Assembly: GCA_964016885.1 (NCBI GenBank)
Contig: CAXHJY010001461.1
Coordinates: forward strand, 1-23,366
DNA: 23,366 nucleotides
Source of the DNA: Eledone cirrhosa
Taxonomy: Eukaryota
Reading direction: 5' to 3'
The notes under the pieces were generated by a model. It was not told where the DNA came from, made no database searches, and saw nothing but the letters and a program-made list of their open reading frames with translations. This document shows, piece after piece, positions 231-16,526 of this stretch. Within the stretch, counting starts at the first letter, position 1; every line of letters begins with the position of its first letter. The position numbers were made by a program, and so were the translations under genes.

Positions 231-435
231 TATAAGATCAAAAGATGGTTAAAAGAGTTCCATGTATTTTATTATGCGCATTTCAAAAACAAATATCATC
301 ATGCAATAGCATTTGTGTTTTCATCAGATAAAATAGGAAGACATGATATGAAGGTTAAAAAACACTTGTGGATAGTGCAGTTTTAAATCAACATATCTGC
401 ATTGCTTTATTGTACTACAATAAAACTCACCTCCT
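231..435. mobile_element. Family A element: inverted arm joined to the 3' tail, flanked by (TA)n
   Basis: 231-397 matches 14581-14747 and 393-435 matches 14946-14988. The two parts are joined through an ATATC microhomology. Confidence 0.75.
265..335 (-). ncRNA. Type I hammerhead ribozyme
   Basis: Minus strand reads TATTTTAT-CTGATGA-AAACACAAAT...ATTTGTTTTT-GAAA-TGCGCA-TA-ATAAAATA. Confidence 0.85.
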
Positions 436-554
436 ACATATATATATATATATATATATATATATATATATATATACATATATATATATTAGAATAATTG
501 ACAACGGAAAGCAAGAAGAACGAAACCTTAAAATAATTTTTTTAAATAAAAAAA

Positions 555-678
555 AGTGTCGCATGGCTGGAAAGAAAATTAGTGCAATGAAAACTGAGAC
601 ACTTGTCCTCTCGAGGAAGCTTGTGCAGTGCACTCTACATGTGAATGAAGTTCCACTGATGAATTTCAAGTATCATGG
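555..678 (+). mobile_element. Decayed RTE-clade (Expander/Rex3-like) LINE reverse transcriptase fragment, part 1
   Basis: Translates as CRMAGKKISAMKTETLVLSRK...NFKYHG, matching the end of the RTE RT domain (G..I...K.E.MV...FKYLG). Confidence 0.75.
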
Positions 679-1417
679 ATATACGCAGACTAGAGAGGAA
701 CGAAGCTTGCATGCTCCGCTGGATTTGTAATAGTAATATACGTGAACGGCAAAGCATAAACGAACTAAGGGAAAAATTAGAAATAAGAGGGATCAGATGT
801 TGTTTACTCGAGAGAAGGCTATGTTGGTATGGTCACGTGATGCGCATGAAAGACGACAGCTGTATAAAAAAGTGCAGGGCAATAAAGATAGACGGTAGCC
901 ACGGAGTAGGCAGACCCAGAAAAACCTGGGACGACTTGATAAATTCCGACCTCACACACTTACACCTCTCCAAGACAATGTCACTGGACCGAGATCTTTG
1001 GCGGTACTCAGTAATAGAGAAGACCCGCCTTACCTGAATACAAAGTAACACCTACTACAGTCAGTAGGCATCTCTAACAAAACACACCCCCACCCCATCC
1101 ACACCGCCCCTTTCAATGTAAAGTTATGTTGGTACTACAACATCCAGGCCGAAACAAATGAGATCGTGTAGGTGTCACGACAAAAAAACACAGTCCACGC
1201 TGTAAATGTGGCCGTGTAGGTAACACGGTAAAAACCTCCCAGCCCCACACTGTAAATGTGGTTGGTGTTAGGAAGGGCATCCAGCCGTAGAAAACCCGCC
1301 AGATAGTCCTATGCGAGCAAGACAACCACTCTTGCCTCAAGTGGGAAAACTCCCGTCCAAACCCATGCAAGCGTGGAACACGGACGTTAAACGTTGATGA
1401 TGATGATGATGATGATG
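679..1417 (+). mobile_element. 5'-truncated RTE-clade LINE: ORF C-terminus, 3' UTR and (GAT)n tail
   Basis: ORF to 1037 contains RRLCWYGHVMRM...GRPRKTW...DRDLWR. The 3' UTR contains GGTGTTAGGAAGGGCATCCAGCCGTAGAAA and ends in (GAT)n at 1396-1420. ATGG is present on both sides (675-678, 1418-1421). Confidence 0.9.
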
Positions 1418-1745
1418 ATGGCGTCCTGTTCACGAGTGATGGAAGGCAGTAGGTTGAATTAAGTGAAAGATTTGCAGGAGTTGGTTCAGTAATGTGCCAG
1501 CTTCAATATTCAGTAATCAGAAGAAGGGGGGGTAGGTGTAAAAGCTAAACTCGCTATCTTCAATTCGGTTTCCGTGCCAACCCTTACCCGTGGTCATGAA
1601 TCTTGGGTAATGAGCGAAAGAATATATATGATCGCGAATACAAGCGACCGAAATGGGGCTTTCTCCGAAGGGTCTTTGGAGTAACGTTACTTGATAGAGT
1701 TCGTAGGCTTGGGGGATCAGAGAGTCACTTCAGGTAGAGCGGCTA
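1418..1745 (+). mobile_element. Decayed RTE-clade (Expander/Rex3-like) LINE, part 2
   Basis: Translates as GVLFTSDGR*...KAKLAIFNSVSVPTLTRGHESWVMSER...RIQATEMG/FLRRVFGVTLLDRVR with a stop and frameshifts. It directly continues part 1. Confidence 0.8.
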
Positions 1746-1747
1746 TA

Positions 1748-1803
1748 TGTGTGTGTGTCTGTGTGTGTGTGTGTGTGTGTGTGTGTGTGTGTGTGTGTGT
1801 GTG
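1748..1803. repeat. (GT)n microsatellite
   Basis: Direct reading. Confidence 0.95.
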
Positions 1804-1931
1804 ATGACCCTGTGATATACAGACAAAAACCCCAGAGTAACATGGCACATTATTTAACCTCAATAAAATGAATATTAAAACTCTACTTTGATATTGAGTA
1901 CTCCTTTCTATCAGCCGTCAAACACATACGG
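1804..1931 (+). mobile_element. Putative Penelope-like 3' tail fragment ending in (TA)n
   Basis: Carries ATATTAAAACTCTAC...TATTGAGTAC, shared with the hammerhead-bearing family E (4779-4910) and with family B. Confidence 0.45.
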
Positions 1932-3170
1932 ATATATATATATATACGTATATATATATACGTATATATATATATATATATATATATATATATATATACA
2001 TATATATACATATATATATATATATATATACGTATATATATATATATATACGTATATATATATATATATACGTATATATATATATATATATGTATATATA
2101 TATATATATATATACATATATATATATACATATATATATATATATATATATATATACATATATACATATATATATATATATATATACATATATATATATA
2201 CATATATATACGTATATATATGTATATATATATGTATGTATGTATGTATGTATATATGTATGTATATATGTATATATGTTTGTATGTATATATATTTGCA
2301 TGTTTGTATGTATGTATATATGTATGTATGTATACATGTATGTATATATGTATATATGTATGTATATATATATATATATATATATATATGTATGTATATA
2401 TGCTCACGTTCTCACACACAGACACACATATATATATATTATATATACACATATATATATTATATATACACAGATAGAAACAGAGATATATGAATACAAG
2501 AATATAGATTTATATAAGGATCAAAAGATTTTTGACAGTAACGGGTGGATTAGTTGAACACAGGGGTGGGGTGGGGTATCACCAATACCCCTGCCACACC
2601 ACTACCTCCACACCCGACCATCATCACCACCACCACCACAAACATACTACTATACACGCATTATATATCTGCATATGTATGTATGTATATGTACGTATGT
2701 ATATATAAGTATACATCTATGTATATATATATATATATATATATATATATATATATAATGTATATATATATAATATATATATATATATATATAATGTATA
2801 TATATATAATATATATATATATATATATAATGTATATATATATATATAATATATATATATATATATATAATGTATATATATATATATAATATATATATAT
2901 ATATATAATATATATATATATATATATATATATATATATATATATATATATATATATAATGTATATATATATAATATATATATATATATATATATATATA
3001 TAATGTATATATATATAATATATATATATATATATATATATATATATATAATATATATATATATATATATATATATATATATATATATATTATGTATATA
3101 TATATAATGTATATATATATATATATATACACACATATATATATATATACATGCATATACACACGCACAC
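1932..3170. repeat. Compound (TA)n/(TATG)n microsatellite tracts with a short unique spacer (~2475-2660)
   Basis: Direct reading. Confidence 0.95.
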
Positions 3171-3301
3171 TTGCGTATATTTATATATTGTTATATTTGG
3201 GGAGGGTCATATTGTTATAATATATCCAAAAATATATATATATATATATATATATATATATATATATATATATATATATACATACATATATATATATATA
3301 T

Positions 3302-3371
3302 ATAACGAAGGAAGTGTGGTAAGGAACCAGGTGGACCATAACGCACCAGAGTACTCAATACTTTGGGTAGT
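3302..3371 (-). mobile_element. Family B 3' tail fragment in (TA)n
   Basis: Reverse complement of ~4133-4203 with a few substitutions. Confidence 0.75.
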
Positions 3372-14614: not shown

Positions 14615-14685
14615 TATTTTATTATGCGCATTTCAAAAACAAACATCATCATGCAATAATATTTGTGTTTTTATCAGATAAAACA
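14615..14685 (-). ncRNA. Hammerhead copy with a mutated core (CUGAUAA), predicted inactive
   Basis: Mirror image of 14796-14866 except G8 to A at 14672. Confidence 0.7.
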
Positions 14686-14795
14686 GGAGAACATGATATG
14701 AAGGCTAAAAAACACTTGTGGATAGTGCAGTTTTAAATCAACATATCAAACTGCACTATCCACAAGTGTTTTTTAGCCTTCATATCATGTTCTCC

Positions 14796-14866
14796 TGTTT
14801 TATCTGATGAAAACACAAATATTATTGCATGATGATGTTTGTTTTTGAAATGCGCATAATAAAATA
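14796..14866 (+). ncRNA. Type I hammerhead ribozyme
   Basis: TGTTTTAT-CTGATGA (14804-14810)-stem II-GAAA (14847-14850)-TGCGCA-TA-ATAAAATA. Predicted cleavage after 14858. Confidence 0.85.
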
Positions 14867-15022
14867 TATGGAACTCCTTTAACCATCTTTTGATCTTATA
14901 TTATGTATACTCCAGTCCCACAAACTGTAGAGTGCTTCTTATCCGATATCTGCATTGCTTTATTGTACTACAATAAAACTCACCTCCTATATATATATAT
15001 ATATATATATATATATATATAT

Positions 15023-15224
15023 CACGATAAATTAACGGAGCCATGGGCCCTCGCCATTCCCTGTAAATAATGTGCTCAAAGGAGAAGAAATCCTGAGCTC
15101 TTTAAAATACAATATGTTGAAAACACATCAGAGAGAGATATACAGTGCGCTATCAATAAATTTTTCCGTTTTATTGATAGCGCACTGTATATCTTTCTCT
15201 GGTTTGTTACCTTTTCAACATATT
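15023..15224. mobile_element. Family C fold-back element
   Basis: 15023-15160 is an inverted copy of 4376-4518. 15161-15224 is a forward copy ending at CAACATATT(AT)n. Arms are ~15111-15160/15170-15224. Confidence 0.75.
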
Positions 15225-15396
15225 ATATATATATATATATATATATATATATATATATATATATATATATATATTGTTTTGGCCTTATTACACATATCCA
15301 AACGTTTATACCTCATTACACAATGCTTCAAGTGAACTATAACCTCCTCCCCATATATATATATATATATATATATAACATTATATATATATATAT

Positions 15397-15690
15397 CATA
15401 GATTGAGTTAGAAACTCAAAATAGTCTTTTACAATTAAATAGCTCAAGGAAGGGAATCTTTCCGAGCCGTGTAATACAAATGAATATATGAGAGTGATGA
15501 ACACCGATACAAGTATACATGTGTTCCAATTGCAAATAACCAAGTCAGCTAGGTTGAAAAAATACTAATTTAAAACAATATGGTTTGCCTGTCTCGATTT
15601 AAAGTAATAAATCAATAAAAATAACAAATCTATATCGGGCAACTGCTTTTAATACCCGGACAGATCTAAAATCTGTTTCGCAAGAATTAT
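15397..15690 (-). mobile_element. Family G element end with a hammerhead 3' half and the conserved tail stem-loop
   Basis: Minus strand GAAA-CAGAT(tttag)ATCTG-TC at 15679-15659, and GCTC-GGAA-loop-TTCC-TT-GAGC at 15467-15442, 45 nt from (TA)n. Confidence 0.55.
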
Positions 15691-15900
15691 TAAGTGAAAG
15701 CCACCATTCCTGTGCTCTTCTGCGGGTATCCAGGAAATTCGTACCTTTCACTTCATAACATATATTTATATATAACATTATATATATATATATATATATA
15801 CATATATATATATATATATAGAGAGAGAGAGAGAGAGGGATATTATATATATCTATATCTATATATACATATATTATATATATATATATCTATATATATA

Positions 15901-16093
15901 TAATTGTTTCTACTTTTGGCTCAAGGCCAGAAATTATCCCAGTGTATTACTGGTACTTTATTTTATCGACCCCGTAGGGATGAAAGGCAAAGTTAACCTC
16001 GGCGGGATTTGAACTCAGACCATAAAGGGCCGTAACTCTTTGCTGCAAAGCACGGCGTCTGACCCTCTACCGATACTGCCAATACACCGCCCT
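15901..16093 (-). mobile_element. SINE family S, apparently full length
   Basis: Minus strand starts GGCGGTG, with A-box-like TGGCAGTATCGG and B box GAGTTCAAATCCC. Confidence 0.9.
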
Positions 16094-16338
16094 TAAAGAA
16101 CTAAGAAGGAACTACTTTAATAGAAACGATGAATCTATGACATAGTTGTGTTTGAAGGATACGTTTACACACGCACACATATATGTACGCATGTGCACAC
16201 ACACACACGCACACATATATATATATACACACATACATACATACACATATGCAAATATATATATATACACGCACATATGCATATATGTGTGTGTGTATAC
16301 TCATATTTAGAATTATATATATATATATATATATATAT

Positions 16339-16526
16339 ATAGGAACGAGTAGGAGCCCTACGGCTGAGCTCAAGCCGTTTCGACGGCTAATTCTGAATTA
16401 GCCGTCGAAACGGCTTGAGCTCAGCCGTCGGGGTCCTACTCGTTCCTATTACCCACTCTACTACCCTAAGTATTGAGTACTTTGGTGCGTTATGGTCCAC
16501 CTGGTTCCTTACCACATTTCCTTCGT
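16339..16526 (+). mobile_element. Family B fold-back element
   Basis: 55-bp arms 16339-16393/16395-16449 (2 mismatches, 1-nt spacer). The tail is identical to 4124-4200. Confidence 0.8.

What the first reader, a model, noticed from the sequence alone, without database searches (positions are those of the whole stretch)
231..16526. Stereotyped architecture: head-to-head arms with two fixed 3' ends bracketing the stem-loop
Seen: in families A (231-435, 14577-14988), B (4012-4200, 4556-4662, 16339-16526) and C (15023-15224), each insert consists of two oppositely oriented pieces whose 3' ends point outward into (TA)n. One piece always stops at an internal UA-rich site (14904, 4123, equivalent of 4430), 4-12 nt upstream of the conserved stem-loop. 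The other runs ~77-88 nt further and includes it. Known: PLE copies often show inverted pLTRs and a short 3' tail extension. Inference: both broken TA ends prime cDNA on the same RNA, one internally just 5' of the structured tail and one at the terminus (twin priming with fixed start sites).
Basis: partly seen in the sequence, partly recalled or inferred. Interest (0 to 1): 0.8.

Follow-up and report, generated by a model that had tools for sequence, protein, structure and literature searches.

The report
Penelope-type inverted inserts with long tails
These short inserts in TA repeats carry two back-to-back pieces, one ending about 80 bases earlier than the other, which is likely the known footprint of Penelope-like retrotransposons, here with an unusually long tail that holds a predicted stem-loop shared by six families.

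Summary
All 6 two-armed inserts listed are head-to-head, with one short and one long 3' end in (TA)n; the ends differ by 77-88 nt. In raw reads of family B, 23-25% of the depth at 4120 leaves into (TA)n at 4123, and contigs of a second organism do the same. 'Each insert' is too strong: B0, C1 and G are single long arms. The architecture is the published signature of Penelope-like elements (PLEs): inverted truncated copy, tail on one end only, hammerhead motif, (TA)n target. Two fixed reverse-transcription start sites bordering the tail were shown in vitro in 2024 (PMC11167929). Not found in my paper searches: a tail twice the published 30-40 bp, and one stem-loop shared by six families (7 strict hits against 0.38 in shuffles). 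Priming from both nicks is likely; 'same RNA' and 'at the terminus' are not shown, since 4 of 6 inserts have fully overlapping arms and the published sites are both internal. No PLE ORF lies in the window, so membership rests on non-coding marks. Verdict: variant of a known kind, modest interest.

The parts
1..205 (.). A0: diverged family-A insert, head-to-head palindrome centred at 52-68, cut by the window start; + arm holds a hammerhead core (123-176) and ends in TA at about 205 without a tail
235..434 (.). A1: short arm on - (235-397) joined through a 5-nt microhomology to the last 42 nt of the tail on + (393-434)
273..327 (-). type I hammerhead core of A1
1809..1931 (+). H: further single-copy insert with the tail stem-loop (1880-1899, one mismatch) 32 nt before (TA)n
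3305..3370 (-). B0: single long arm (tail only, truncated inside the stem-loop), (TA)n on both sides
4015..4200 (.). B1: short arm on - (4015-4071), long arm on + (4072-4200), arms overlap 51 nt
4081..4108 (+). 3' half of a type I hammerhead in B (GAAAC, stem III with palindromic loop, GTC site ending 4103, stem I strand); 5' core lost by truncation
   Evidence: inference from sequence
4129..4152 (+). tail stem-loop SL1 of B: 4-bp lower stem, 4-bp upper stem, 2-nt 3' bulge
4345..4518 (+). C1: single long arm of family C with SL1 at 4443-4467; first 30 nt unassigned
4558..4659 (.). B2: tail fragment on - (4558-4603) joined to short arm on + (4604-4659); arms do not overlap
4779..4919 (-). G: single long arm of a further family with hammerhead core (4906-4879) and SL1 with a 3-nt loop (4840-4822), TA-rich on both sides
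14582..14987 (.). A2: short arm on - (14582-14747), long arm on + (14748-14987), arms 148 of 149 identical
14798..14864 (+). type I hammerhead of A2: 6-bp stem I, CTGATGA, long stem II, GAAA, palindromic TGCGCA, predicted cut after 14858
   Evidence: no Rfam hammerhead match
14909..14933 (+). tail stem-loop SL1 of A
15023..15223 (.). C2: long arm on - (15023-15160), short arm on + (15161-15223), arms overlap about 50 nt
15397..15766 (-). D: single-copy 370-nt insert between TA tracts with SL1 (15467-15442) 45 nt before its 3' end; no internal inverted repeat
16342..16526 (.). B3: short arm on - and long arm on +, near-perfect palindrome centre at 16394; both arms share two variants absent from B1

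Best explanation
These inserts are likely very short, 5'-truncated copies of several Penelope-like retrotransposon families, in which both nicked strands of a (TA)n target would prime reverse transcription at two fixed sites that bracket a predicted stem-loop in the element's RNA. Shown: head-to-head arms, two fixed 3' ends 77-88 nt apart, (TA)n on both sides, hammerhead cores in A and G and a 3' half in B, and one stem-loop shared by six families. Inferred: the element's protein (a predicted dimer in the anole element) binds the stem-loop, nicks both strands, starts one cDNA at the UAUU 4-12 nt 5' of the stem-loop and the other 43-54 nt 3' of it; the two cDNAs stop early and are joined head to head; when only one nick is extended a single long arm results. 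The template is uncut RNA, because arms run across the predicted hammerhead cut site. Both arms come from one source sequence; I put one RNA molecule with strand displacement at about 0.4 and two RNAs of one source at about 0.25.
For: 6 of 6 two-armed inserts are short+long. Family B reads: 3822 and 3585 loose ends into (AT)n at 4123, 25% and 23% of depth at 4120; depth falls 20% and 18% between 4120 and 4125; same site in contigs of two organisms. 12 opposite-strand joint rows: one side at 4073 or 4076, the other spread over 4100-4162; the longest short side is 51 for 4073-4112 and 4073-4117 and 48 for 4076-4120, exactly the distance to 4123. Arms within an insert are closer than between inserts: A2 148/149 against 139-140/149 to A1; B1 50/51 and B3 49/51 against 44-49/51. 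SL1: 7 strict hits against mean 0.38, max 3 in 100 shuffles; D and G were found out of sample; upper-stem pairs differ among A, B, C and D while staying Watson-Crick; the outer pair, not in the descriptor, pairs in 6 of 6. Among listed read variants in B's SL1, 4 of 8 unpaired and 2 of 16 paired positions vary, one of these keeping a G-U pair. Hammerhead core pattern 5 hits against mean 0.53. Literature: PMC11167929 (two start sites border the tail; both strands nicked and extended; uncut RNA is the main substrate; predicted dimer), PMC8557442 (inverted truncated copy, tail on one end, (TA)n bias), PMC4209133 (minimal type I hammerheads with palindromic helix III in pLTRs).
Against: No PLE ORF in the window and no genome held, so the enzyme is not identified. 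No Rfam hammerhead match at threshold: none for A, 11.8 bits against 48.5 for G; C, D and H show no hammerhead core. Tail folding energies do not beat shuffles (z -0.2 to -0.9). 4 of 6 window inserts have fully overlapping arms, not the deletion geometry of twin priming. Only about a quarter of body-covering reads leave at the short site, not the half expected if every insert had two overlapping arms (RAD sampling distorts this). Short-arm 5' ends also coincide (A1 with A2; B1, B2, B3 within 3 nt), which two-site priming alone does not explain. In the anole element the start site was not homologous to the cut DNA, while here the short site has 3-8 nt of TA-like overlap. The long end was not visible in reads.
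Confidence: 0.6

Rival explanations
1. One priming event at the long site; the cDNA folds back at a hairpin in the element, is copied back on itself, and the endonuclease resolves the intermediate by cutting at the AT-rich short site. Non-overlapping inserts are later deletions of one palindrome arm.
For: Explains near-identical overlapping arms and the shared palindrome centres. Loose ends upstream of 4073 suggest that B's centre lies in the hammerhead's stem II hairpin (agreement 0.46-0.62 in three runs, 0.98 from 2 contigs in the fourth). A1 can be derived from an A2-like insert by a deletion between 5-nt repeats. PMC3846280 proposes self-priming for head-to-head palindromes; PMC8557442 ascribes the tail to endonuclease resolution; the anole enzyme prefers ATT, which all three short sites hold.
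Against: Read joints with partner ends spread over 4117-4162 (10 of 12 rows) would all have to be secondary deletions; B2's junction shows no microhomology; PMC11167929 maps reverse-transcription starts at both tail borders in vitro.
Confidence: 0.25
2. The palindromic composite arose once per family and has since been amplified as one small non-autonomous unit, so the fixed short end is inherited, not re-made at each insertion.
For: A1 and A2 short arms have the same 5' end; B1, B2 and B3 short arms end within 3 nt of each other.
Against: B3's two arms share two variants that B1's arms lack, and A2's arms are 148/149 alike but 139-140/149 to A1: arms track the insert, not the arm type, unless homogenised later. 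Spacers differ between B1 (8 nt) and B3 (1 nt). Reads across a B1-type centre are about 1% of body depth, though the library's enzyme may cut there.
Confidence: 0.1
3. Cut-and-paste MITEs with terminal inverted repeats that insert at TA.
For: TA on both sides; 4 of 6 inserts are long palindromes.
Against: The inverted repeat is not terminal on one side (77-88 nt lie outside it); A1 and B2 have no inverted repeat; single arms and graded 5' truncations occur; hammerhead cores are present.
Confidence: 0.02
4. Assembly or library fold-back artefact.
For: Palindromes beside long microsatellites are hard to assemble.
Against: Arms within each insert differ by 1-3 substitutions; the short end and opposite-strand joints recur in two raw-read runs of other samples and in contigs.
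Confidence: 0.02

Closest known systems
Endonuclease-bearing Penelope-like elements, general insertion structure (PMC8557442 passages; PMC3846280 passages; PMC8969392 passages)
   Same: 5' truncation, head-to-head inverted copy, tail on one end only, microsatellite target that hides target-site duplications, palindromes at the inverted junction
   Different: Tail 77-88 nt against 30-40 bp (31 bp in Adineta); inserts are only 66-406 nt; no direct partial tandem and no ORF in the window
PAc, Poseidon element of Anolis carolinensis (PMC11167929, main text parts 1-2 of 4, passages, text layer of supplements 1-2; figures not seen)
   Same: Two fixed ends bordering a tail downstream of a hammerhead, a stem-loop at the start sites, AT-rich target, both strands extended, uncut RNA as template
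   Different: Tail about twice as long, extending 43-54 nt past the stem-loop; strict (TA)n target; short site has TA-like overlap with the target; the parts of the paper I read do not tie one site to each strand in a single insertion
Neptune and Naiad clades (PMC8557442 passages)
   Same: (TA)n preference (Naiad; microsatellite bias also noted for Neptune); hammerheads in non-Naiad clades fit A, B and G
   Different: Clade cannot be assigned without the ORF; Naiads lack canonical hammerheads, which could fit C, D and H only
L1 twin priming and dual priming (PMC2912911 and PMC2837659, passages)
   Same: Both target ends prime cDNA; 3' ends point outward; non-overlapping arms in A1, B2 and most read joints
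   Different: No poly(A); the internal site is fixed; 4 of 6 window inserts overlap instead of deleting
Non-LTR retrozymes (bioRxiv 10.64898/2026.07.22.740005, part 1 of 5)
   Same: Short, non-coding, type I hammerhead, tied to PLEs
   Different: Defined as head-to-tail tandem repeats; here arms are head-to-head or single

Membership tests
Penelope-like elements (EN+) | ORF with telomerase-like RT and GIY-YIG endonuclease | not testable with these tools
   No such ORF seen in 1-1935 or 13850-16560; 0 Pfam families for 4 frames scanned; no genome held; 0 loci in three collections
Penelope-like elements (EN+) | 5'-truncated copies with an adjacent inverted copy, head to head | tested here: met
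   6 of 9 inserts of A-C, plus A0's palindrome; 12 opposite-strand joint rows in reads
Penelope-like elements (EN+) | Tail extension on one end only | tested here: met
   6 of 6 two-armed inserts; short end recurs in reads
Penelope-like elements (EN+) | Tail length 30-40 bp | tested here: not met
   77, 83 and 88 nt against PMC8557442 and PMC11167929
Penelope-like elements (EN+) | Type I (minimal) hammerhead in the pLTR | tested here: inconclusive
   Core and stems by pattern in A (3 copies), core in G, 3' half in B; none seen in C, D, H; no Rfam match at threshold; cleavage untested
Penelope-like elements (EN+) | Direct partial tandems forming pLTRs | tested here: inconclusive
   None among the window's inserts, all shorter than one pLTR region
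Neptune or Naiad clade | (TA)n target | tested here: met
   All 8 long ends and 6 short ends of A-C join (TA)n
Neptune or Naiad clade | Position of the endonuclease domain and linker Zn-finger | not testable with these tools
   No ORF available
L1-type twin priming | Inverted fragments with an internal deletion, no overlap | tested here: inconclusive
   Met in 2 of 6 window inserts and 10 of 12 joint rows (overlap 6 nt or less); not met in 4 of 6 window inserts
MITE | Inverted repeats at both termini | tested here: not met
   77-88 nt lie outside the repeat on one side; 2 of 6 have none
MITE | TA target-site duplication | tested here: inconclusive
   Cannot be told inside (TA)n; no empty site obtained (skipped the flank)
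Non-LTR retrozyme | Head-to-tail tandem units each with a hammerhead | tested here: not met
   No tandem array of these units

The most novel reading that the evidence does not exclude
A (TA)n-targeting PLE lineage uses a conserved bulged stem-loop (NCUC...2-nt bulge-GAGN) as its protein-binding site, and an asymmetric dimer primes the two nicked strands on one RNA at fixed offsets on either side of it. The one-sided tail and the inverted pLTR of PLEs would then be one event, programmed twin priming, with a rule (one short and one long end per two-armed insert) that can be read from genomes.
Probability: 0.3. Interest if true: 0.6.

Novelty: new variant of a known kind. Interest (0 to 1): 0.35.

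Why it matters
How PLEs make inverted pLTRs and a one-sided tail is still called open in PMC8557442, and PMC11167929 leaves the later steps unvalidated. These tiny, abundant inserts show both ends and the junction in under 200 bases, so a census in one assembly can test whether the two nicks use different start sites. The shared stem-loop gives a concrete candidate for the protein-binding site and a descriptor for finding otherwise unclassified PLE remnants (it picked up D, G and H here). The architecture itself is not new.

Tried and rejected
Whole-genome census: no genome held. One family-B pattern in metagenome, viral and prokaryote contigs: 0 matches each. Earlier findings: nothing by place, sequence or words. 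Rfam: whole window gave only sub-threshold miRNA-like matches among the 150 of 391 rows shown; A region no hammerhead among 13 rows; G one hammerhead at 11.8 bits. Pfam on 4 frames: 0 families. MAFFT on 7 tails does not align A's stem-loop with the others, so covariation was read from the descriptor output, not from an alignment. Tail MFE z-scores not significant; a second hairpin near the long end is predicted in most tails but I did not test it against shuffles and make no claim. No RNA holder listed. The pile of 6895 and 6987 molecule ends at 4072 was rejected as evidence: it coincides with an AATT in the family and is probably the RAD library's cut site (inference). Loose-end rows at 4109 and 4117 were read as a variant subfamily, not junctions. 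Body-to-tail depth in RAD reads (about 1) and contig depth were not used as copy ratios. 2 of 10 relaxed stem-loop hits (993, 19197) are not near TA and were taken as chance (shuffle mean 1.5). The fixed 4073 side of read joints is partly forced by my reference, which has no sense sequence upstream of 4072.
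Full report
Setting. The window is animal-like DNA, 36.5% G+C, packed with (TA)n and other microsatellites. No genome is held for it. From recall, not from a call, the microsatellite load and a repeated SINE-like element suggest an octopod; nothing below depends on that.

Check of the observation. Self-comparison of the masked window and alignment of all arms in sense orientation confirm three families. The six listed inserts are head-to-head, with both 3' ends running into (TA)n, and each pairs a short with a long end (6 of 6; 1/64 under equal independent choice). 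Short ends fall at 14897-14904 (A), 4120-4123 (B) and 4429-4430 (C); long ends at 14987, 4200 and 4518, identical in 2 of 2, 4 of 4 and 2 of 2 long arms. The list left out members that do not fit 'each insert': B0 (3305-3370) and C1 (4345-4518) are single long arms, and A0 (1-205), a diverged A copy cut by the window edge, has a visible arm that ends about 10 nt before the A short site. In A1 and B2 the long arm is truncated 3' of the stem-loop and does not include it.

Test outside the window. I laid four public runs on B1's long arm, 4055-4290: contigs of the best holder (15,090 laid), contigs of a second organism (36), and two RAD raw-read runs of the first organism (22,626 and 23,537). Loose ends behind 4123 have consensus (AT)n in all four (106 and 3 contigs; 3822 and 3585 reads, 25% and 23% of depth at 4120; depth drops 20% and 18% by 4125). 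Among the 21 loose-end rows shown (406 not shown), the other exits were 4109 (a variant subfamily) and 4171 (363 and 318 reads). Of 14 joint rows, 12 change strand: one side at 4073 or 4076, the other between 4100 and 4162, at 4117 or later in 10 of 12. Where it can be told, the longest short side equals the distance to 4123 (51, 51, 48), so the arm that starts at 4073-4076 is a short arm and its partner a long arm. Limits: counts are reads, not loci; RAD samples part of the genome; the pile of molecule ends at 4072 is probably a restriction site; overlapping palindromes are likely under-read; the tool skipped 4190-4290, so neither the long end nor an empty site was seen. That three quarters of body-covering reads continue into the tail says that single long arms are common or short arms are under-captured.

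Anatomy. A has a full minimal type I hammerhead pattern: 6-bp stem I, CTGATGA, long stem II, GAAA, palindromic TGCGCA. B keeps the 3' half, with a 4-bp stem III and palindromic loop; loose ends upstream of 4073 suggest that the inversion centre lies in stem II. The core pattern gives 5 hits against 0.53 in shuffles, but Rfam gives no hammerhead at threshold and C shows none. The tail stem-loop is NCTC, 3-4 bp, loop, complement, 2-nt bulge, GAGN. A strict descriptor gives 7 hits against mean 0.38, max 3, in 100 shuffles of 10,231 complex bases; 5 hits are the A-C copies it was written from, and 2 are new inserts, D (15397-15766) and G (4779-4919), G with its own hammerhead core. A relaxed descriptor adds H (1809-1931) and 2 probable chance hits, 10 against 1.5. 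Features outside the descriptor hold in 6 of 6 families: the outer pair, a TATT 7-15 nt upstream (weak in AT-rich DNA), and (TA)n 32-54 nt downstream. Upper-stem sequences differ among A, B, C and D and stay paired. Against this, whole-tail folding energies are no better than shuffles. Arms in one insert are closer than arms of different inserts (A2 148/149 against 139-140/149; B1 50/51, B3 49/51 against 44-49/51; C2 is the exception, 46 matches, 3 mismatches and a 5-nt gap). Short-arm 5' ends also cluster: A1 with A2, and B1, B2, B3 within 3 nt.

What is known. PMC8557442 (passages) describes PLE insertions as 5'-truncated, often with an inverted truncated copy, a 30-40 bp tail present at only one end, hammerheads in pLTRs of non-Naiad clades, and (TA)n bias. 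PMC3846280 (passages) reports a 31-bp tail on one of the inverted pLTRs, head-to-head palindromes, and proposes self-priming. PMC4209133 (parts 1-2 of 4) defines the minimal hammerheads and notes pairs on opposite strands 100-700 bp apart. PMC11167929 (parts 1-2 of 4, passages, text layer of two supplements; figures and the sequence file not seen) shows that the anole enzyme nicks and extends both strands, starts at two internal RNA sites that border the tail, uses uncut RNA, and is predicted to be a dimer; it found genomic ends on those two sites. PMC9977147 (passages) reports new PLE insertions of median 128 bp in a microsatellite target. L1 twin priming gives inverted fragments with an internal deletion, and dual priming by two RNAs was proposed as indistinguishable in that data set (PMC2912911, PMC2837659, passages). 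A search for 'twin priming' with 'Penelope' gave 3 papers, none on PLE mechanism by listing; searches showed no paper on tails of 77-88 nt or on this stem-loop by listing or by the passages read. Subscription papers and Repbase or Dfam entries were not searchable, so absence is not shown.

Mechanism. Most likely both nicks in (TA)n prime cDNA, one at the UAUU just 5' of the stem-loop and one 43-54 nt 3' of it, and the two short cDNAs are joined head to head; a single extended nick gives a lone long arm (0.6). One RNA is favoured by strict pairing, shared variants and non-overlapping read joints, but the 4 overlapping inserts need strand displacement (PLE RTs lack RNase H, recalled) or a second RNA. 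Fold-back at an internal hairpin followed by endonuclease resolution at the ATT-bearing short site is the main rival (0.25) and explains the clustered centres better. Amplification of a ready-made composite (0.1), MITEs (0.02) and artefact (0.02) fit poorly. 'Priming at the terminus' is unsupported: in the one element tested both sites are internal.

Verdict. A real feature, the known PLE tail-and-inversion signature in families whose ORF I could not reach. The longer tail and the shared stem-loop make it a variant worth a genome-wide census. Interest 0.35.

Noticed in passing
window 14381-14555: TA-bounded single-copy insert with a hammerhead-like stretch on + (altered first core, stem II, GAAAC, palindromic GTAC, GTA) and, on -, a TATATT followed by a short CTC..GAG hairpin 54 nt from its end; may be a seventh family, arms could not be matched.
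   Followed up: partly
window 13859-14146: TA-bounded insert with a hammerhead-core pattern on - (14009-13970) that lacks clear stems.
   Followed up: partly
window 3781-3929, 11135-11264, 14167-14323, 15904-16091, 20321-20605, 20780-20843: Six copies of a SINE-like repeat, 85-96% alike; recalled, not shown by a call, as resembling an octopus tRNA-derived SINE.
   Followed up: no
window 663-1037: 124-codon open frame that reads like the C-terminal end of an RTE-type LINE ORF (recalled); 0 Pfam families.
   Followed up: partly
window 3181-3212 and 3706-3735: A 30-nt TA-adjacent sequence present twice in opposite orientation, seen by eye.
   Followed up: no
window 7537-7560 and 7620-7640: About 100-nt element with terminal inverted repeats (GGGTGTCCCAAAAA), with a third copy of the repeat at 7314-7327; looks like a true MITE nested in TA, unlike families A-H.
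   Followed up: no
window 1165-1261: Two tandem 48-nt units inside a repeat that ends in (TGA)n at 1395-1420.
   Followed up: no
window 206-234 and 14988-15021: Different inserts share one TA tract tail to tail (A0 with A1; A2 with C2), so TA tracts act as repeated landing sites.
   Followed up: partly
window 4109-4117 (reads): Family B has at least three subfamilies that differ between the hammerhead and the short end (4110, 4115, 4116 and an insertion variant), yet contigs of the variant still end in TA at the same site.
   Followed up: partly
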